A DNA stretch of 64,000 nucleotides from positions 26,970,001 through 27,034,000 of the forward strand of contig NC_043005.1 in NCBI RefSeq assembly GCF_006345805.1, read 5' to 3'. Below, in pieces: positions 11,123 through 51,928 of the stretch (positions are counted from its first letter, which is position 1; each line of letters opens with the position of its first letter). The notes beneath the pieces are model-generated. The model had not been told where the DNA came from. It saw only the letters and a list, made by a program, of their open reading frames with translations, and ran no database searches. The stretch is from Octopus sinensis (lineage: Eukaryota). Both the position numbers and the translations under genes were made by a program.

Positions 11123-11979
11123 ATGATGGAATATGAAAGCCTCACCTCCTCGGAGCTTACGTCTTCTGAGGAGGAGCTGTTAAGGTCTGTTGAAATAATG
11201 GACGAATAGTTGAAGAGAAGGAATTTTGCGACTGTCACCAGTGAGCTCGATCTGGCGGAGCTGGATAAATATAAGAACATGCTGTGTAGGGAGGGACGCG
11301 AAGTAAAAGTGTTCCGTCCCCAAGAAATTATGAAAGACACTAAGGAGAAAATGATATTACAACAAACATACTCCACGGAAACAAAGAAGACTGAGATAAT
11401 GACAACTACACAAGTTAAAAGGGCTTTGAAACCAATCTGGCAAGATATCTCGTACCTTGCCAGAGGAAGGAAGTACAGAACGGTGAAGGTGAGTTTCCGA
11501 GAGGTAGCTGTTGCCGGTTACACTCGGCAACCCCTTTAAAAACCGAAGAAGTGGTACTTCTACCCATATACCTTGGAAGACGTGCTTCCAGGGTTAGGGT
11601 AGAAGATATACCACCAGAAATTGACGTAGCCTGGCTAGTAGCTGCCATACTGCTAGGCAATGAAAAGAAGATAGTGGTCCTCCAGGCCACAAGAACAGCT
11701 CATAAAAATTGGCAAGGGCAGACCCTGGATATGATTATCCAGGGGTCCCCGGAAGATATCGAATATTTAATAGAAGCCATCGCTACAGAGGACGTAATAA
11801 TCAGGGTCAGAGTGGAGGGCAGGACTCCGCGTTGCTACAAGTGTGGCCTAAAAAGCCATATTAGAGCGGACTGTCCTTCGCCACCCCAAAAACCCCAAGA
11901 AAGGCTCGTGAGCAGGGAGGAAGCCGCACCACCAGCTCCAACAAAAGAAATGGAAGAAGAAGCAAACAAAGAAGAATGA
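11123..11979 (+). pseudogene. L1/Tx1-type ORF1 (ZCCHC3-like, CCHC zinc knuckle), within an element spanning about 10860-12655
   Basis: ATG at 11123, one in-frame TAG at 11207, and one frameshift near 11520-11550. Contains RVRVEDIPPEI and VEGRTPRCYKCGLKSHIRADC (CX2CX4HX4C). No EN or RT ORF is visible before the hairpin+AATAAAG tail at 12617-12654. Confidence 0.75.
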
Positions 11980-28161: not shown

Positions 28162-28455
28162 TACATTATTTACATTTAACGGATATTTGTCCTCATCTTG
28201 TTTGTTGTTAACACAACATTTCGGCTGATATACCCTCCAGCTTTTATCAGATGTCTTGGGGAAATTTCGAAGCTGGGTTCTCGTTCCTAAGGTATTTTTC
28301 TAGAAACCAGGTTCGAAATTTCCCCAAGACACCTAAAGAAGGCTGGAGGGTATATCAGCCAAAACGTTGTGTTAACAACAAACAAGATGAGGACAAATAT
28401 CCGTCAAATGTAAATAATGTAAATCATTCCTCATCTCTTAAATATAGAACTGTAT
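28162..28455. mobile_element. Non-autonomous Penelope-like element (family 1), inverted palindrome with a hammerhead motif in each arm
   Basis: Inverted arms at 28162-28300 and 28302-28421, with a tail of about 33 nt on the right arm only. 14-bp TSD taacaatcttctac at 28151-28164 and 28456-28469. HHR-like cores at 28210-28255 (-) and 28328-28373 (+). Confidence 0.85.
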
Positions 28456-28890: not shown

Positions 28891-30150
28891 CTGAAGTTAG
28901 AAAAAAAGAAGAAAAAGGTTAAAAAAAACAAAATATGGGAAAAGATGATGAGGAGGGAGACTATTCGGATATTCATTATATTGGCATGAGTTGGACAGGT
29001 TTGCAACATCAGATCTTTATGTGTGTCAAGGGCAACAAGCTGGCAGAATCATTAGGATGCCGGGCAAAATGCTTAGCGGTATTTCGTCTGCCGTTACGTT
29101 CTGAGTTCAAAATCCGCCAAAGTTGACTTTGCCGTTCATCCTTTTGGTGTCAATTAAATAAGTACCAGTTACGCACTGGGTTGATGTAATTGACTTAATC
29201 CCTTTGTCTATCCTTGTTTGTCCCCTGTGGGCAATAAAGAAATAAATTTTGTGCCCCTTGGAGAAAAGAAAGTGAGAGTCAAACAGAGTTATTCTTCTTG
29301 CTCAAAAATTTCAACAGAAAGACTATCAATATTGGCAACCTGCATAATACGACAACTCATTCAATGTAACACTATCCTCTTCTCATTATCATGTACCACG
29401 ATACTGAACGAAACATCTCACTGTTTTTCTCTCTTTACATCTTAAAATCCAATTCATACAGAGGGACATCGAATTTGCTGTTCATCATGATGGTTTTACT
29501 TAGCGTAGTTTTAACGTCCACTTTCCCATGCCTGCATGGGTCGGACAAAAGTCACTGAGGCAGATTTTCTATGGCCAGTTTCTCTTCTCGTTGCTAATTC
29601 TTACTTGTATCCAAGTAAGGTAATATTTCTCCGTGGCTAGACATATTTTCACAGAAGATTGAAATCAAATGGCATCACTTGTATGATGGTCACACTCATT
29701 TACAACTTTTGCACAATGCCAAGACACAGAGCCATCACTATCATCATCATCACCAACACATTATTCACAATGGACGGACAGGTGTCCTCATCTTGTCTTG
29801 TTTCCACAATGTTTCAGCTGATTTACTCATACATACACTTTCACCATCTTTCCAGAACATGACACTTTTAACACCAGAGATTTACTGGTAACATTCTTAT
29901 ATAACAAATAAATTACGAACTTATCTTAAATTTCCTATAAGTTTGGTTTGAAGTCTTCGTCAGATAAACTAGAACAAGTTATGTCCCTTGTTAGAGGGAG
30001 ACAACACAAGGATTATAAAAACAAAAATGTTCAGCAGAGTCTCGCCACCAAATATTTTCGCTTAATCCTAACAACCCTGGCAGCTAATCAATAAGAAATC
30101 ACTTCTCTTTTTACATATTCTCAATATCAATGTTTCATTTGAACATCAAA

Positions 30151-36083: not shown

Positions 36084-36258
36084 CATCGAAAATACCTTAG
36101 GAATAAGAACCCAGGTTCAAAATTTCCCCAATACACCCGATGACGGCCGGAGGGTATATCAGCCAAAGCGTTATGTTAACAACAAACAAGATGAGGACAA
36201 ATATCCGTCAAATGTAAATAATGTACATAATTCCTCATCTCTTAAATATAGAACTGTA
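36084..36258 (+). mobile_element. Penelope-like family 1, single-arm copy with degenerate hammerhead
   Basis: Near-identical to 28302-28454, including the tail. Core reads acac-CCGATGA-cggccg-gagggtatat-cagcc-AAAG-cg-tt-atgtt at 36132-36177. Confidence 0.8.
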
Positions 36259-36814
36259 TGCTTCCCATTCTTCATTTTATATGGAAGAACAATGATTCAT
36301 AGAATCAACTGGAAATATAAGAAATATTTATTGTTGTGAGATGATGTAAAAAGTAATAAAACCTTTTGATAATCAATACTCTTATTCTCCAAGAAGGCGT
36401 AAAATAAAGAGATCAGCCACATTCCAGTTTATGTTTACAATTTAAACTCATGGAAAACACACTAACCATCACTAGAATACCAACACCAGTGACTATTCTT
36501 ACAAGCCATAAATAACCTACTGACTCGAGGCACTGGCCTTACTAATTCTAGTGATTATCCTTACGCACCTTCAATAACCTACCAATTCCAGATCCTTGCA
36601 TACCATCACTTAATGCCCTTGCCCCCTCTCCATTGATGATCAAAGAAAGGTTGTAATACTGTTCAGACCATCTGAATTAATGGCTCTGTTTATGAATAAC
36701 TTAGAATATAAATAATAGACAGATAAGGATTGATTCCTTTTTGGATCAGGATTGATTAAGAACTAAACACCAATTCTCCAGTGCATACACACACACAGAA
36801 GGAAAAAGATTTAC

Positions 36815-37518: not shown

Positions 37519-39759
37519 TAACATCCAGGTTAAAACAATAAATCAAAAGGTGTCGACATTATAACAAACTATAACCACATTCATCATTATTGTTTTAATG
37601 TCCACCTTTTCACACTTGCATGAGTCAAACAGAAGTTGTGGAGGCAGATTTTCTACAGCTGGATGCCCTTCTTGTCACCAACCCTCACCTGTTCCCCAGC
37701 AAGGTAATATTTCCTTATAACCAGACATGTTTTGCATGGAACACTGAAAACAAACAGCATCTCTTGTATGAAGGTGATGCCTACTTACAGCTATCACACA
37801 ATTTCGAAACAAGGGGACACAAAAACACACACACACACACATACATGTAACTACAAACAGCAAACCAACATACACATAAATATATACACACACACACTAT
37901 ATGTATATTTATACATATATGTATGAAAACACTCCTGCAACAGACAGGTATCCCATCCAGGGTAGAAATAGTTATGCCACAGAATCAGATAGGGAAACTG
38001 GCCTTATGAACCTGTGGCTTGGGAAGGATCTTTGATCTCTTTAACATACAACAGGTGTCTTTGAGCTTTCTTCATCAGCCAGGGTCTACAATAGAAGACA
38101 TCAACCTAAGGTGCAATACAAAAAACAACACAATTGTTTCTAAATCGTGTGAACCAAAATCACACAATTTAGAAGCAAGTTTCTCAACTTCACAACCATA
38201 CCTACAATGACATGGTAAGCAGTGTATTTCTAAGAATTTCTCCAAAATTTTGTCTAACTAAAGCATTTTTTAGCCATTATTTTAAAGCCAATTTAAGTGG
38301 GATTTTTCTCCTTTCAACTAGTTCAACATTTTTTTTAGTCAATTACTTTATTTTTTACTCTCCTTTTTTTTTTCTTCTTAGAGAATTTAACCTACCTTAT
38401 ATTTTTTATTAGGCAGTTTAAATGAACATATTTTTTTAATCATTTAGATAAATTAAGTCGTCTTTTTCCCAGCCATTTCTAAGCCAATTTAACTACCATT
38501 TTTCTTGCTATCAATGCTGGGTATGTTGAAAATATATAAGTGCTTGCATTCTCTCTTAATTATTGCAGTTATCCAAACCACCACCACCACCACCCATTTA
38601 GGCTCTTTTCATTCCAAGTTCAAACCCTGTGGGGGCAAACTTTGCCTTTCATTCTTTCAGAGTAGATAAAATGAATTGAACTCAATACAATCAACTGCAC
38701 AATACCTTCTCTAAACAGTCTGGCCAAGTGCCAATTTTACAAATTAATATTAATGTAGTTATGGCTCCATCATTAAGAAGCTTGCTTCCTGACTTCATGC
38801 CTTTCGGTTCACTCCGACTGTTGTGTGTGTATATATATATGTGTGTGTGTATACTGGGTTGGATTGGATTGCCTTTACTCAGGCCACTGCAAGACAAAGG
38901 CCTCAACAGGTTCTCTCCACCAACCATGGTCCAATGTGGAGGTTGTGGATTTAAGCTTGATCACACTGGTTTGATAAGCCTACTGTGTCACACTAGTTCA
39001 ACATGGCTTGGCAGAAGGATGCAGTTTTCTCTGTTATGCTCTCACCCAGGAGCAGCCAAGTTATGTCGACCTCAGTACACAACTGGTATTTATTTTATCA
39101 ACCCCAAAAAGATGGCAGGCAAAGTCAACCTAGGCACAATTTGAACTCAAAATGTAAAGATGGCTGAAATACCTGTAAACATTTCAGCTGGTATGCTAAC
39201 AATTCTGCCAGTTCACCTGTGTGTGTGCGTGTGTGTGTGTGTGTATATATATATATACACACACACACATACATACATTTAGACATAATACAAGCATACA
39301 TGTGTGTGTGTGTGTGTGTGCGCGTGCATGTCCCCTTGTCTTCACATTGCTTAATAGTAGAAAACAAACATAGCCATCATACAAGCTGTGTTCTTCATTT
39401 CAAATCTTCAGTGAAAACATGTCTATCAATGGGGAAATATCACCATTCTTGGAAACAAGGATTGGCAACGGGAAAAGAATCTGGTCATAGAAAATCTGTT
39501 TAAATAAATTCCATCTGACCCATGCAAGTATAGAAAAATGGACATTAAACTGACGAAAATGATGTATATATATAATGTGTTTTGTTATGCTTTTGTTATA
39601 AATCCTTATTGCTATTACAATCATCACTGACTGATAGCTCCTAAAGTTTTTTTTATTCTCTCTCTGTATATTTCTTCGTATTCCTTTCTGTTTAAGAGCG
39701 TAGGCTCAAAACAAAAGACTTTCTCACCTTTCGAAGCTTTAAACTAATACACCTGTATG

Positions 39760-40127
39760 GAAAATTACTATTTTTAAATCTCACAATGAGAGATATTCAG
39801 CAACAGCACTTTGGAGCAAAGATTATTTGCCAACATAACATGGCAGTCCTGGTTTAGGACAAATGTTGCTGTAATTTAGCCCCAGGAGACATCGTCTCCA
39901 GCTGGCTATACAACACGATCTATGTCCTTATATTTTTGAACAAGGAAATCTAGCACCCCAAATCAGCTCAAAACCACATCTGTGTATCGTGATTTCCAGG
40001 TTATTTCCCTTCATAAGCACCTATCGTGTCATATAGCCAGCTGGAGACAATGTCTCCTGGGGCCAAATTACAGCAACATTCGCCCTAAACCAGGACTGCC
40101 ATCTTATGTTGGCAAACAATCTTTACT
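39760..40127 (-). mobile_element. Penelope-like family 3 palindromic element, copy 1
   Basis: Inverted arms at 39815-39919 and 40023-40127, a tail of about 55 nt on the left, HHR motif at 39980-40020 (-), and a 9-bp duplication tacacctgt at 39748-39756 and 40134-40142. Confidence 0.8.
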
Positions 40128-41228
40128 ACATTGTACACCTGTTTGTTGTTTATACACCTGTCTTCATCTTTGGTTTTCTGTAAATTTCAACATCATAGTT
40201 AAGTATTCTATGGCAACAGCAATTTCAATCCAATTCAATGGCAACATTCTCTTCGGTTACAGTATTTACACTATTCTCTCTTTTATCACTAATTCAATTA
40301 CTCTTTTACTTGTTTCAGTCATTTGACTGCAGCCATGCTGGAGCACCGCCTTTAGTCAAGCAAATCGACCCCAGGACTTATCCTTTGTAAGCCTAGTACT
40401 TATTCTATCTGTCTCTTTTGCCAAACTGCTAAATTACAGGGATGTGAACACACCACCATCGGTTGTGAAGCAATGTTGGGGGGACAGACACAGACACACA
40501 AACATATACACATGCATATATATATATATATATATATATACATACATACATACATACACACACACGACGAACTTCTTTCAGTTTCCGTCTACCAAATCTA
40601 CTCACAAGGCTCTGGTCGGCCTGAGGCTATAGCAGAAGACACTTTCCTAAGGTGCCATGCAATGGGACTAAACCCGGAACCATGTGGTTGGGAAGCAAGC
40701 TACTTACCATACAGCCACTCCTGCGCCTTATTCAATTTTCCAACATTTCAGCTCAAAATATTTCTTCTATCTACTTCAAGTATCTTTTACTTCTTTTAGT
40801 CACTAGACTGTGGGGTAAAGTTGGGGTACCACCTTGAAGAGTTTTCCCAAACAAACCTGTACTGGCTTTACGTTGTAAGCCTACTACTTATTCTATTGGT
40901 CTCTGTTGCCAAACAGTGAACTTATAGATATAAACAAACCAACACCAGTTATCAAGTGATATGGAGACAAACACACACATGATGGGCTTCCATACAACTT
41001 CTGTCCATCAAATTTGCTTAGGAAGGCAATGGTTGTCTTGGGGCTATAGAAGAAGACACTTGCCTAAGGTGCTATGCAGCGGCACTGAACCCAAAATCAT
41101 AAGGTTGCAAAGTGAGTTTCATAACAACACAGTTGTATCTGTTCCTGAAGCCATTGAAAAGATGAATGTAAAGCAAAACAAAGCCAAATACAGCATTTTC
41201 TTTTTGGAATCTTAAATTGAAGGTTATA

Positions 41229-41792
41229 CAAGGGTGAGTCAAAAGGTAATGCCGTTTTGTTTAGGACAGGTATAATTACCAACACAGGAACATGTATCAT
41301 ACTTCAAAATGAAGCTGGTCCTCTGTCGATCACATATCTACTTCAACATAGTCACCATTTCTCTCAATAGCAATGTTCCACCTTCCAATGAGAGCATGTA
41401 TTCCTGCCCTGTAAAATTCTGTTGACTGCTCTTTGAGCCACTTCTTCATTACAGTTTTCAATTCCTTGTCACTGGAATAATGTTTGCCTCTCAAACCCTC
41501 TTTAATGGGGAGAAAGGGATGATAGTCCAGTGATAATGATAGTCCAGTGACGAGGAAGTGAAAACTGTAGTGAAGAAGTGGATTAAAGAACAGTCAGCAG
41601 AATTTTGGGTGGCAGGGATACATGCTTTCATTCGAAGGTGGAACATTGCTATCGAGAGAAACGGTAACTATGTTGAGAAGTAGGGATGTGATCAACAGAG
41701 GACCAGCTTCATTTTGATGTATGATACATATTCCTGTGTTGGTAATTATACCTGTCCTAAACAAAATGGCATTAGTTTTTGACTCACCCTCG
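41229..41792. mobile_element. Mariner-derived foldback MITE (two inverted 3' ends), copy 1
   Basis: Flanked by TA. Inverted arms of about 248 bp at 41229-41476 and 41543-41792, each carrying the mariner transposase C-terminal coding sequence (SSDEEVKTVVKKW...RRWNIAIERNG.YVEK). Confidence 0.9.
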
Positions 41793-42484
41793 TAGTTTTT
41801 AAAGATATAAAAGTAAACACAAAACTTTCTGTCTCATCAATGAATCTGTTTTTTTCTGCCCTAAAATTGGTGTCTAGAAAGTCTATTGGTTTATGTCTAA
41901 ATTCTTTGAAGGTTGACCAATGCCTTGCGTGTGTGAATGTCACTGAGCTACAACCAAGCTGGAGCACCACTTTCAAAGTTTTTCATTAAATGTATTAGTC
42001 TGATGCTCATTTTATCAATCACAGTTTATTAAATACTTCGATTTTTTTTGACAAAGATGACAAGCACTTTGTCATGACAAAGATGACAAGCACTTTGTCA
42101 TGCCACTAAACACACACACATATGATGAGCTTTGTCCGTTTCCTGTCTACCATATTTCATTCACAATGCATTAGTAGGCTCTCAGAGACATTATATGTAT
42201 GAAATCTAGATGAGAAAGTGAGGAGACAAACAGACAGACAGGGATGGGCAGATCTACTGATGTGACTCAAATCCCCATATCTGTCTATTTTTATATAATT
42301 TTATAAAAATTCTATTTTTAACTTTAAATTTTTCAAAAACTAAGATGTTTGCCTTGATGGTGATGTAATAATTGTCTCCCTTGGATTTGCTCTCTGCACT
42401 GTACATACACTTTTGGCTACCTTTCCTGATTAGTTGTAGAGCACCTAAGCACCATACACAATAAGTTCGGAATCATTTCTAAGG

Positions 42485-46990: not shown

Positions 46991-47135
46991 TCAGTTACCT
47001 CACCCTACCAAGATGTTGAACAATAGTAGCATAGAGTTACTCATTAATATAAGATTATATCAGGCACAATAAAACTACAGAAATGGTATCAGCTTGGCTT
47101 CAGTGTGCCACACAGAACTAAACAAAACCTGAGTA

Positions 47136-47702
47136 GAAAATTACTATTTTTAAATCTCATAATGAGAGATATTCAGCAACAGTACTTTGGAGTAAAGATT
47201 GTTTGCCAACATAACATGGCAGTCCTGGTTTAGGACTAATGTTGCTGTAATTTAGCCCCAGGAGACATTGTCTCCAGCTGGCTATACGACACGATCTGAG
47301 TCCTTATATTTTCAAACAAGGGAATCTAGTACCCCACACCCAGCTCAAAACAATATCTGTGTATCGCGATTTCTGGGTTATTTCTCTTCATCGGCACAGA
47401 ATAATTGCTTGGCTAGAGGTGGTGCTGCCAAATTCCCATTTGAAATATATAGTTATCACTTTGAAAACTATATATTTCGAACAGGAAATTGGCAGTGCCA
47501 TCTCTAGCCAGAACAATTATTCTGAATCGCGATACACCAATATTGTTTTGAGCTGAGTGGGGGTGATAGATTCCCTTGTTTGAAAATATAAGGACACAGA
47601 TCGTGCTGTATGGCCGGCTGGAGACGATGTCTCTTGGGGCTAAATTACAGCAACATTCGTCCTAAACCAGGACTGCCATGTTATGTTGGCAAACAATCTT
47701 TA
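47136..47702 (-). mobile_element. Penelope-like family 3 palindromic element, copy 2 (longest)
   Basis: Inverted arms at 47193-47454 and 47466-47702 around an 11-nt loop, with the same left tail as the other copies. HHR motif at 47357-47399 (-). The HHR core is deleted from the right arm at 47524/47525. Confidence 0.85.
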
Positions 47703-48715: not shown

Positions 48716-49998
48716 CGTGACTGTATGGGAAGAAGCTTGCTTCCCAACCACATGGTTCCAGGTTCAGTCCTACTGCATGGCACCTTGGGCAAGTGTCTCC
48801 TACTATAGCCACGGGCTGACGAAAGCCTTGTGAGTAGACTGAAAGAAGCCCATTACATATATATATATATATATATATTTGTGTGTCTGTGTTTGTCCTC
48901 GCCACCATTACTTGACAACCGATGTTGGTGTGTTTACATACCCGTAACATAGCAGTTCAGCAAAAGAGACTGATAGAATACGCACTAGGCTTAAAAAGAA
49001 TAAGTCCCAGGGTTGATTTGTTCAACTAAAGACGGTGCTCCAACATGGCCACAGTCAAATGACTGAAACAAATAAAGGAATAAAAGAATGGAGTGTTTTT
49101 TTTTTTTTTATTCACAGGTCTGTAGGATCAAGGCTTCTCGGCCTCTACATTGGTCATTTTTGCTGACCAGTTATCAAAGAAACGCTGTCATCCTCCAATG
49201 GCTACAGAGCTGTCTCTTTCAACAGCTAAGGAAAAAAAAGTTTCCCGTCTCTCCCTCCCAACACTTCTATTGATCAGTGAACCAAGAAAAGACATTTTTA
49301 ATGACCATCATTTATGTTTTGGAAAATTGCTGAAGAGGAAGACAAAGATGAAAAAAGACCAAAATATGAGTGGAGGGAAGGAAGATAAAGAAAATAAGAT
49401 TCATTGTCACCATCATCGTTTAACGTCAGTTTTCAATGCTGGCATGGGTTGGACGATTTGATTGAGGTCTGGAGAGCCAGCGGCTGCACCAAAAAATATG
49501 TGTGTGTGTGTCTCTCTCTTTGTTGTGGCATTGGACAATAGTTCTAACCAAAGGCCAATGTCATTCCAGTAATATTATTCATTTCCAATCTTCCACGAAA
49601 ACATGTCCAGACATGAGGAGATATTACCTTGCTTGGAAACAAGTGAGGGCTGACAACAGGAAGGGCATTCAGCTTTAGATGGTCTGCCTCAGCAAATCCC
49701 TTCTAAATCATGACAGTATGGAAAAGTGGATGTTAAAAGACAGTGACAATGGAAAAATACCACAAGAGGACATTCTACATAATGTAATATAGAGTAGAAT
49801 GTCACAAGGAGTGGCAAAAGTTCAACTGAGGTGAAGAGGAAAAAAAAACTCCCTCTAGTGGTGATCAAACTGAAAAAGATAAGCAAGGGAGACAATACTT
49901 ACAATATAAATATATTTGGGAAATCAATGGAAAGCTTTTAGGAGTGGAGCTTGTCTTTGTAACCAAAAAGTGAAAGTAACAAACAAGTTCCTACTTTG

Positions 49999-50368
49999 GA
50001 AAATTACCCTTTGTAAATCTCACAAGGAGAGAGATTCAGCAACAGTACTTTGGAGTAAAGATTATTTACCAACATAACATGGCAGTCCTGGTTTAGGACG
50101 AATGTTGCTATAATTCAGCCCCAGGAAACATCGTCTCCAGCTGGCTATACGACACTATCTGTGTCCTTATATTTTCGAACAAAGGAATCTAGCACCCCAA
50201 CTCAGCTCAAAACAATATCTGTGTATCGCGATTACTGGGTTATTTCCTTTCATCAGCACAGAATAATTGTTCGGCTAGAGGTGGCACTGCCAAATTCCTG
50301 CTCAAATAGAAAATTACTTTTATTACAAACCAGAACTGCCATGTTGTGCTGGCAAATAATCTTTACTC
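49999..50368 (-). mobile_element. Penelope-like family 3 palindromic element, copy 3
   Basis: Same left end as copies 1 and 2, short right arm at about 50327-50370, HHR motif at 50219-50261 (-). 15-bp TSD caagttccta(c/t)tttg at 49984-49998 and 50369-50383, one mismatch. Confidence 0.85.
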
Positions 50369-51379
50369 CAAGTTCCTATTTTGTTCTTCAGCAAATCAAA
50401 AGAGGAGACTCACATATCTAATAAAGACATGGTAGTAGTGTAGGCTCGGCTGTGTGATTAAAAAGTTTGCTTCCTAACCATTAGGTTCTGGGTTTAGGCC
50501 CACATTAGGAAAGTACCTTCTACTGTAACCCTAGGTCCACCAAAGCCAAGTGGATTTGATTAGAGAGAAACTAAATGAAGCTCATCATGTGAGAGAGAAA
50601 GAAAGAGTGTGTGTGTGTGTGTGTGTGTGCATGTGTGTGTGTTCATTCCTGTGCATGCATTATGTATCATTTCCATTATTTAATGTTTGTTTTCCATGCT
50701 GGCATGGGTTGAATGATTTCCATGCTGGCATGGATTAGATGATACAAAAGCAGATAAGAGAAACAACAATTAGAAGGACAGACAAAAAGACGGGTCATTC
50801 GTGGCTTTCTTTCCTCAGTCAAGTTCCAGAAGTCACATGTATATATATTGTGATTTTAACACACCATGTTTATGAAGAGATTCTCTCTCTCAGACAAAAA
50901 TCACAGCAGTATGCCTTTCTATAGTGTATATATACTATCAAGACAATTTTCCCATTACATGGTGGTAGGCCCCTCATCTGGGTTGCTACATGCTGAGATA
51001 CCTTCTTCAGCATCAGTTTGGGGTGTTCAGCAACCAGTCCATCAGACCAAGAAGGGCACTGTCATAGTATCATCCACTCTGAGGGCTTTGAGGCTGAGCC
51101 TGTGGCAGTGGAGACATCCAGCGTTCTCAGCCACTTGACCACATCCCTGCTCACCACTATCAGGCCAGAGATGGCCTTCTGTAAATACAAGCCCAGTGAG
51201 TCAGAATGGCTGTTCTGGTGAATCTCTCTTGCTATATTTCAGGGTAACACATTTCCCCATTTTGGGACCATGAGACAGACTGACATGCCTGTTTAGACAT
51301 TATATGTCACTTATTGTTTTAGTCATTAATACATTTTGGAAAATTTTATTCTGATTTCTCTATAATCTTGAACTATATA

Positions 51380-51928
51380 CGAGGGTGAGTAAAAAAGTAA
51401 TGCCATTTTGTTTAGGACAGGTATAATTACCAACACAGGAACATGTATCATACATCAAAATGAAGCTGGTCCTCTGTCGATCACATCCCTACTTATCAAC
51501 ATAGTCACCATTTCTCTCAATAGCAATGTTCCACCTTCGAATGAGAGCATGTATCCCTGCCCCGTAAAATTCTGTTGACTGTTCTTTGAGCCACTTCTTC
51601 ACTACAGTTTTCACTTCCTTGTCACTGGAATAATGTTTGCCTCTCAAACCCTCTTTCATGGGGCCAAAGAGATGATAGTCCAGTGACAAAGAAGTGAAAA
51701 CTGTAGTGAAGAAGTGGCTCAAAGAACAGTCAACAGAATTTTGCGGGGCAGGGATACATGCTCCCATTCAAAGGTGGAACATTGCTATTGGGAGAAGCGG
51801 TGACTATGTTGAGAAGTAGGGATGTGATACACAGAGCACCAGCTTCATTTTGATGTATGATACATGTTCCTGTGTTGGTAAATATACCTGTCCTAAACAA
51901 AATGGCAATATTTTTTGACTCACCCTCA
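51380..51928. mobile_element. Mariner-derived foldback MITE, copy 2
   Basis: Inverted arms of about 250 bp at 51380-51629 and 51679-51928, with the same junction as copy 1. ORF 51489..51767 shows DYHLFGPMKEGLRGKHYSSD. Confidence 0.9.

What the first reader, a model, noticed from the sequence alone, without database searches (positions are those of the whole stretch)
47174..47247. tRNA-sized cloverleaf at the element 3' end, closed only by the tail; the same logic appears in a second family
Seen: in ribozyme sense the family 3 end is a 74-nt four-way junction. The closing stem is cagcaaca/tgttgctg and the hairpins are gtcct-aaacc-aggac, tgcca-tgttatgt-tggca and cttt-actcc-aaag. Further hairpins flank it (ggagac/gtctcc upstream, atctc/gagat downstream). 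In all three copies the inverted arm stops inside the third hairpin, so only the tail-bearing arm can close the fold. The sequence-unrelated family 1 does the same: tail tcctcatct (28428-28436; 36232-36240) pairs with agatgagga (28385-28393; 36189-36197), and the inverted arm stops inside that loop. Inference: a conserved RNA or ssDNA structure defines the site of RT recognition, self-priming or nicking that creates the PLE tail.
Basis: partly seen in the sequence, partly recalled or inferred. Interest (0 to 1): 0.75.

Follow-up and report, generated by a model that had tools for sequence, protein, structure and literature searches.

The report
Conserved stem brackets Penelope-type start site
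This is the end of a very common ribozyme-bearing jumping repeat, in which a base-paired RNA stem kept through compensating mutations encloses the fixed point where the inverted half of each insertion ends, likely marking where the copying enzyme starts its second DNA strand.

Summary
The fold is in the sequence (z -3.6), but it is not a tRNA and not a conserved cloverleaf. It lies at the 3' end of a ~353-nt non-coding, hammerhead-bearing tandem repeat (non-LTR retrozyme, Penelope-type) with at least 1,487 anchor hits in this genome. Of 110 arms not selected for a tail, 49 end in an 8-nt window inside the closing stem and 49 at the tail end ~56 nt further on. The two ends are flanked by a ~13-bp target duplication. 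Across sister subfamilies the closing stem shows compensatory changes and hairpin 2 is kept. Family 1 and two further hammerhead families show the same layout, but enclosure by some helix is common (18-60% of positions). Inverted repeat, tail, duplication and two RT start sites are known for Penelope-like elements. I did not find the conserved enclosing stem, or this signature on retrozymes, in print. Best model: both target nicks prime reverse transcription at two fixed sites, with the stem positioning the inner one. No partner enzyme was identified and no RNA structure was probed.

The parts
47174..47247 (-). Multibranch fold at the repeat's 3' end (the finding)
   Evidence: conserved core
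47240..47247 (-). Closing stem P1, 5' strand (CAGCAACA)
   Evidence: pairs 4 and 6 covary across subfamilies
47174..47181 (-). Closing stem P1, 3' strand (TGTTGCTG), inside the tail
47222..47236 (-). Hairpin 1; variable, absent in one young sister subfamily
47204..47221 (-). Hairpin 2; GCCA/TGGC core conserved, flanking pairs covary
47186..47193 (-). Site A: position at which inverted (tail-less) arms end genome-wide; inferred inner RT start site
   Evidence: (49 of 110 arms)
47183..47194 (-). Weak hairpin 3 in the better-supported register TACT/AGTA; not conserved in all subfamilies
47134..47190 (-). Tail (~56 nt), ending at site B (~47134), the inferred outer RT start site
47154..47170 (-). 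Tail hairpin ATCTC/GAGAT; inner pair is A-T, T-A or T.T by subfamily
47261..47275 (-). Upstream hairpin GGAGAC/GTCTCC
   Evidence: not tested for covariation
47357..47399 (-). Type I hammerhead-like motif with palindromic helix III; this copy has CCGATGA in place of CTGATGA
   Evidence: read from the sequence; the sister-family motif scores 28.4 bits on Rfam Hammerhead_1, E 0.0019, below the gathering score of 34
47473..47702 (+). Inverted, tail-less arm of this insertion, ending at site A; no clear target duplication for this copy
39758..40130 (.). Second family-3 insertion (tail arm -, inverted arm +) with a ~9-bp target duplication
49997..50371 (.). Third family-3 insertion with a ~14-bp target duplication (1 mismatch)
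28162..28455 (.). Family-1 insertion: inverted arm ending inside the 9-bp AGATGAGGA/TCCTCATCT helix, tail arm on +
36106..36259 (+). Family-1 tail arm without an inverted arm

Best explanation
The 74-nt fold is the 3'-terminal part of a non-coding, hammerhead-bearing ~353-nt tandem repeat whose insertions end at two fixed points flanked by a ~13-bp target duplication, and its conserved closing stem likely acts in the RNA as the signal that positions a borrowed Penelope-type reverse transcriptase at the inner of two start sites. SHOWN: the two fixed ends, the target duplication, head-to-head arms, a shared source of the two arms, and covariation of the stem. INFERRED: a Penelope-type RT/GIY-YIG protein (probably a dimer) cuts both target strands ~13 nt apart. 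One 3'-OH primes at the tail end (site B). The other primes at site A, in a weakly paired segment 10-20 nt past hairpin 2, inside the loop closed by P1. Both cDNAs run toward the RNA 5' end on a multimeric or circular template, stop at variable points and are joined, giving an inverted tail-less arm plus a tailed arm.
For: Ends are bimodal: 49/49/12 of 110 arms in 67 unselected loci. Depth steps and loose ends fall at the same two places in contigs of a public DNA run. A target duplication is seen in 38 of 46 arm pairs against 1.3% of 306 mismatched pairings; median 13 bp in 33 of 41. Arms of one insertion share 21 non-majority variants against a mean of 5.2 (max 12) in 500 shuffles. In 19 of 31 unselected insertions the inverted arm has >=20 nt that the tail arm lacks, and several inverted arms run through an upstream unit's tail junction. 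P1 reads CAGCAAC/GTTGCTG, CAGTAGC/GCTACTG or CAGTAAC/GTTACTG by subfamily: 90% of cells paired, 0 of 500 shuffles as high, at least three lineage-level double changes on the tree, and recovered by RNAalifold on 19 sequences. Short arms end 10-20 nt after hairpin 2 in 52 of 63 family-3 arms and 58 of 76 sister arms, while P1's 3' strand starts 24 nt after it in 139 of 160. The layout recurs in family 1 and two further hammerhead families. In vitro, the anole PLE protein cuts and extends both strands and starts at two internal sites bounding the tail (PMC11167929).
Against: No protein-coding partner with related ends was found among 50 GIY-YIG loci. Only two P1 pairs covary, and the tool's shuffle ignores relatedness. 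In a blind mutual-information scan the best P1 pair ranked 18th of 11,781, behind phylogenetic noise. RNAalifold on the untrimmed 27-row alignment found no P1. In long context P1 probability exceeds 0.5 in 17 of 23 family-3 and 23 of 29 '3b' arms but only 3 of 10 and 0 of 2 arms of two other subfamilies; it is 0.24 for the window copy folded from the cleavage site. Between 18 and 60% of positions in these RNAs lie inside some >=6-bp helix, and site A was not enclosed in 2 of 9 contexts. The complementary strand folds about as well. Arms disagree at one diagnostic site in 5 of 31 informative pairs. One RNA run showed both orientations about equally and no pile-up of ends. Deletions at the centre of inverted repeats could mimic arm asymmetry.
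Confidence: 0.62

Rival explanations
1. Site A is a stop or a cut, not a start. The tail-arm cDNA folds back, self-primes and copies itself until the P1 structure (in ssDNA or in the RNA:DNA hybrid) halts synthesis or directs a GIY-YIG nick.
For: The fold is equally stable on the complementary DNA strand (z -3.68). Self-priming was proposed in PMC3846280 and endonuclease resolution in PMC8557442 (passages). Arms share source variants.
Against: 19 of 31 inverted arms carry up to 235 nt absent from the tail arm. There are 5 of 31 diagnostic discordances. Both sites are RT starts in vitro for the anole element.
Confidence: 0.18
2. The two start sites are real but are set by local sequence (the YYTYAY motif at site A) and by distance from another protein-binding element. 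P1 is conserved for another purpose, such as compacting or circularising the retrozyme RNA or helping hammerhead folding, and encloses site A by coincidence.
For: Enclosure is common (18-60% of positions). Retrozyme RNAs are described as highly self-paired (PMC7229834 passage). The site-A motif is kept across subfamilies even where hairpins 1 and 3 are lost. P1 is weak in long-context folds of two subfamilies.
Against: The hairpin-2-to-P1 spacing is fixed at 24 nt in 139 of 160 arms. Four families with no detected sequence match around site A all place it inside a 6-9-bp helix closed by the tail.
Confidence: 0.17
3. The fold is a tRNA mimic recognised as in tRNA-derived SINEs or viral 3' tRNA-like structures.
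For: 74 nt and a four-way junction in family 3 and subfamily 3b.
Against: No ARAGORN or Rfam match. No D- or T-loop motifs. It is internal, not terminal. The four-way form is not conserved.
Confidence: 0.03

Closest known systems
Penelope-like elements with GIY-YIG endonuclease (pLTR, inverted pLTR, tail; PMC3846280, PMC8557442, PMC4209133)
   Same: Head-to-head inverted truncated arm, tail at one end, partial tandems, target duplication, and a type I hammerhead with palindromic helix III.
   Different: No ORF in any family-3 copy examined. Tail ~56 nt (46 in a sister family, >100 in families 5 and 6) against 30-40 bp. Duplication ~13 bp against the 8-10 bp reported for rotifer copies.
PAc (Poseidon of Anolis) two-site internal initiation (PMC11167929)
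   Same: Two fixed sites bounding the tail; both strands used; start in an A/C-rich loop. Read by eye from the paper's printed template, a 7-bp helix (+50-56 with +94-100) encloses an AC-rich loop about 30-40 nt upstream of the +111-118 site.
   Different: The paper's text describes a stem-loop at +111-118 only and does not say whether that is the outer site (figures are not held; three supplement files had no matching text). It reports no conserved enclosing helix and no covariation.
Non-LTR retrozymes (PMC7229834; bioRxiv 10.64898/2026.07.22.740005)
   Same: ~350-nt non-coding tandem units, each with a type I hammerhead; proposed to be mobilised by PLEs.
   Different: Neither main text describes inverted arms, tails or target duplications for animal retrozymes. 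Circular RNA was not shown here.
L1 twin priming (recalled, no call)
   Same: Both target nicks prime cDNA, giving an inverted 5' part and a target duplication.
   Different: In L1 the second priming site is variable and the arms do not overlap. Here the site is fixed and the arms overlap.

Membership tests
Non-LTR retrozyme | Short non-coding unit in tandem repeats | tested here: met
   353-nt unit, up to four in tandem
Non-LTR retrozyme | Type I hammerhead in each unit | tested here: met
   Core motif read from the sequence; the sister motif matches Rfam Hammerhead_1 at E 0.0019, below the gathering score
Non-LTR retrozyme | Self-cleavage and abundant circular or monomer RNA | tested here: inconclusive
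   One RNA run, ~6% read: 1,969 reads, both orientations, no pile-up of ends
Penelope-like element (autonomous) | ORF with RT and GIY-YIG | tested here: not met
   No such ORF linked to family 3 or its sisters; such ORFs exist elsewhere in the genome
PLE-mobilised non-autonomous element | Inverted truncated arm plus tail plus target duplication | tested here: met
PLE-mobilised non-autonomous element | Sequence link to the pLTR of an autonomous PLE | tested here: inconclusive
   None among 50 GIY-YIG loci out of 5,029 candidates; two hits were nearby insertions
PLE-mobilised non-autonomous element | Mobilisation by a PLE protein | not testable with these tools
   needs a biochemical or cell assay
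tRNA / tRNA-derived SINE | Cloverleaf with D, anticodon and T arms and A/B boxes | tested here: not met

The most novel reading that the evidence does not exclude
Penelope-type elements and animal retrozymes share a general cis-acting RNA architecture: a helix closed by the tail that presents the inner start site. It lets an RNase H-less RT dimer prime both target strands on one RNA at two programmed sites, explaining the inverted pLTR, the tail and the target duplication in one step and showing how retrozymes integrate.
Probability: 0.4. Interest if true: 0.75.

Novelty: new variant of a known kind. Interest (0 to 1): 0.57.

Why it matters
The origin of the PLE tail and inverted repeat has been argued as self-priming, endonuclease resolution or internal initiation, and the RNA signal is undefined. 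This gives a ~75-nt candidate signal with natural compensatory variants and thousands of mapped junctions, so the question can be tested with a few paired mutations. It also gives insertion-signature evidence that invertebrate retrozyme-type repeats use PLE machinery, which so far rests on co-occurrence and sequence similarity. A short portable signal for two-strand, template-internal RT priming would interest people who engineer retroelements.

Tried and rejected
tRNA or Rfam identity: none.

Covariation inside family 3 alone: most variation is post-insertion noise. The subfamily-linked changes lie in loops and linkers or keep pairing, but the anchor region was fixed by the search.

RNAalifold on the untrimmed 27-row alignment gave no P1; two rows were mis-cut and two carried an 8-nt insertion. 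It was re-run on 19 trimmed, hand-picked rows. Blind mutual information was dominated by relatedness.

Autonomous partner: not found. One Pfam accession was not in the library.

Window 'family 2' (41225-41794, 51376-51927) was rejected as a mariner-type MITE by eye.

Family-1 covariation: the search returned only mutated copies of the same family, so it is untested. Family-5 P1 is conserved without double-sided change in its core. Family 4 was uninformative: few copies and two inverted arms, only one ending in the tail hairpin. The automated end calls for family 6 were inflated by (TA)n flanks and were read by eye instead.

Microhomology at the junctions was 0-4 nt and noisy, with no control, so no claim is made. 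Relaxed ARAGORN on family-1 loci was too noisy to name a tRNA. Three look-ups of earlier findings returned nothing.

Full report
OBSERVATION. The minus strand 47174-47247 folds at -22.9 kcal/mol, z -3.59; the plus strand gives z -2.56. The other two window copies fold alike (z -3.11 and -3.30). There is no tRNA or Rfam match. The three inverted arms end in the hairpin-3 region. Two of the three window copies have a target duplication; the copy at the finding has none that is clear. Only one of the two family-1 copies has an inverted arm.

WHAT THE ELEMENT IS. The window lies in a 2.72-Gb genome; I did not establish the species. A 24-nt anchor has 1,487 exact hits and its reversed control has 0. 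Fetched loci show a 353-nt unit in tandems of up to four, usually preceded by an inverted truncated copy. Each unit has a type I hammerhead core with a palindromic helix III, as described for PLEs and metazoan repeats (PMC4209133, passages). No RT or GIY-YIG ORF is attached. It fits the non-LTR retrozyme description (PMC7229834, passages; bioRxiv 10.64898/2026.07.22.740005, parts 1-3 of 5 read).

END MAPPING. I took anchor hits in listed order on contig C1 (most of the first ~90 of the 100 places listed, of 1,487), not selected for a tail; three overlapping loci were dropped. Of 110 arms in 67 loci, 49 end in an 8-nt window (site A, equivalent to 47186-47193), 49 at the tail end (site B, ~47134) and 12 elsewhere. 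In 31 loci an A arm and a B arm lie on opposite strands; one locus has two B arms. The outer flanks of paired arms match as a target duplication in 38 of 46 pairings (three from one locus) against 1.3% of 306 mismatched pairings; length is 9-16 bp, median 13, in 33 of 41. Contigs of a public DNA run show depth steps and loose ends at the same two places, and the repeat is held by runs under four organism labels. Both ends are therefore direct junctions to a staggered cut.

ORIGIN OF THE INVERTED ARM. Arms of one insertion differ by 6.5% against 7.1% for shuffled partners and share 21 non-majority variants against a mean of 5.2 (max 12 in 500 shuffles; 45 pairs). They come from the same source and then aged independently, though 5 of 31 informative pairs disagree at one diagnostic site. 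In 19 of 31 unselected insertions the inverted arm has 20-235 nt absent from the tail arm, and some inverted arms read through an upstream unit's tail junction. This argues against simple fold-back and for a second priming on a multimeric or circular RNA. Later asymmetric deletion remains possible.

IS THE FOLD CONSERVED? Diverged sister families turned up beside GIY-YIG loci; two patterns gave 3,475 and 4,153 hits. On 27 hand-picked tailed arms, two of them mis-cut, P1 is 90% paired with 13 double-sided cells and 0 of 500 shuffles as high; that control ignores relatedness. On a tree of 167 tailed arms built without the P1 columns, pair 4 switches C-G/T-A once and pair 6 switches A-T/G-C at least twice; the terminal pair 8 is lost in several lineages. 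RNAalifold on 19 trimmed rows returns 7 bp of P1, 4 bp of hairpin 2, 2 bp of hairpin 1 and no hairpin 3; on the untrimmed alignment it failed. One young subfamily has a pyrimidine run in place of hairpin 1 yet keeps P1, hairpin 2 and site A. Short arms end 10-20 nt after hairpin 2 in 52 of 63 family-3 arms and 58 of 76 sister arms (that class includes about nine misassigned family-3 arms); P1's 3' strand starts 24 nt after it in 139 of 160. My notebook's figure of 56 of 63 was a miscount. Against: blind mutual information ranks the best P1 pair 18th of 11,781, and in long context P1 is weak in two subfamilies and in the window copy. The conserved unit is P1 plus hairpin 2 plus a loosely paired start segment, not a cloverleaf.

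OTHER FAMILIES. Family 1 has 3,423 anchor hits. Of 41 arms in 29 loci, 27 are short and 14 tailed; by eye the short ones end in the loop of the 9-bp helix, and 7 of 9 inverted pairs show a duplication. Longer copies carry what reads by eye as the C-terminus of a GIY-YIG ORF, so family 1 is likely the pLTR of an autonomous PLE; its helix was not tested for covariation. A blind hammerhead pattern gave families 5 and 6. My first guess at the family-5 closing stem and inner site was wrong; the layout below was found afterwards. In family 5, 16 of 39 arms end in an 11-nt window about 12 nt past a 7-bp hairpin, inside a helix closed further on. In family 6, five arms by eye end at one site inside an 8-9-bp helix. 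Enclosure by some helix covers 18-60% of positions, so four of four families is only about p 0.03, post hoc. The narrower layout covers 6-18% of positions in families 3, 5 and 6 but was met in only 3 of 9 contexts.

MECHANISM. Frangieh 2024 (PMC11167929, parts 1-3 of 4 read; three supplement files searched without a hit, figures not held) shows a PLE protein, predicted dimeric, cutting and extending both strands and starting at two internal sites that bound the tail. By eye, its printed template has a 7-bp helix around an AC-rich loop 30-40 nt upstream of the +111-118 site; that this is the outer site is my recall, not the paper's statement. I infer the same chemistry here, with P1 and hairpin 2 positioning the inner start. 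That PLE RTs lack RNase H, which would let one RNA be copied twice, is recalled. Rivals are a stop or nick after fold-back (PMC3846280, PMC8557442; passages) and a stem kept for another purpose.

EXPRESSION. In one raw RNA run (~6% read) 1,969 reads were laid, about equal on both orientations, many running into unrelated flanks, with no pile-up of ends. This is no evidence for a discrete retrozyme RNA, and no evidence against one given the unknown library type.

NOVELTY. Inverted pLTR, tail, duplication, hammerhead and two start sites are known. Seven library searches found no paper describing a conserved tail-closed helix around the inner site, or this insertion signature on animal retrozymes; subscription papers and bioRxiv supplements are not covered. 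Verdict: a real feature with a partly mis-drawn structure, a new variant of a known kind, and a directly testable handle on PLE integration.

Noticed in passing
L117, L114, L119, L116 (family 1, upstream of the hammerhead): Between the ORF end and the hammerhead lies a tRNA-like segment with apparent A and B boxes followed by (AAT)n; many short copies start near it. Possibly a Pol III-driven, SINE-like PLE end.
   Followed up: partly
L181-L290 (sister subfamilies) against L031-L100 (family 3): Sister subfamilies insert mostly into (TA)n microsatellites, whereas family 3 inserts into ordinary AT-rich DNA and has a tail ~10 nt longer; this suggests a change of partner endonuclease or target preference.
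   Followed up: no
L243, L254, L259, L263, L288: A young, near-identical sister subfamily replaced hairpin 1 with a pyrimidine run and has TTGACGA at the hammerhead core.
   Followed up: partly
L346-L385 (families 5 and 6): Tails of ~100-170 nt, far longer than the 30-40 bp described for PLEs; two family-5 subfamilies have different outer ends.
   Followed up: partly
window 41225-41794 and 51376-51927: Two ~560-bp palindromic elements with TA flanks and mariner-like termini (MITE; label from recall).
   Followed up: no
L161-L165: Near-intact RT + GIY-YIG ORFs of 762-883 aa from at least two PLE families; two were confirmed by Pfam. They are candidate partners.
   Followed up: partly
L026:1851-3185: At least seven head-to-tail copies of a ~163-nt sub-unit, each ending at site A; a satellite-like array bounded by the inner start site.
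   Followed up: no
alignment, columns 97 and 117: The base after hairpin 2 covaries with a base just before P1's 3' strand (A-T 139, T-A 21), hinting at an alternative helix that competes with hairpin 2; it may be a single-lineage effect.
   Followed up: no
window 11419-11979 (+): A 186-aa frame with a CCHC zinc knuckle, like a LINE ORF1 fragment.
   Followed up: no
window 29758-29826 (-): A diverged (79%) short arm of family 1 ending at the same loop.
   Followed up: partly
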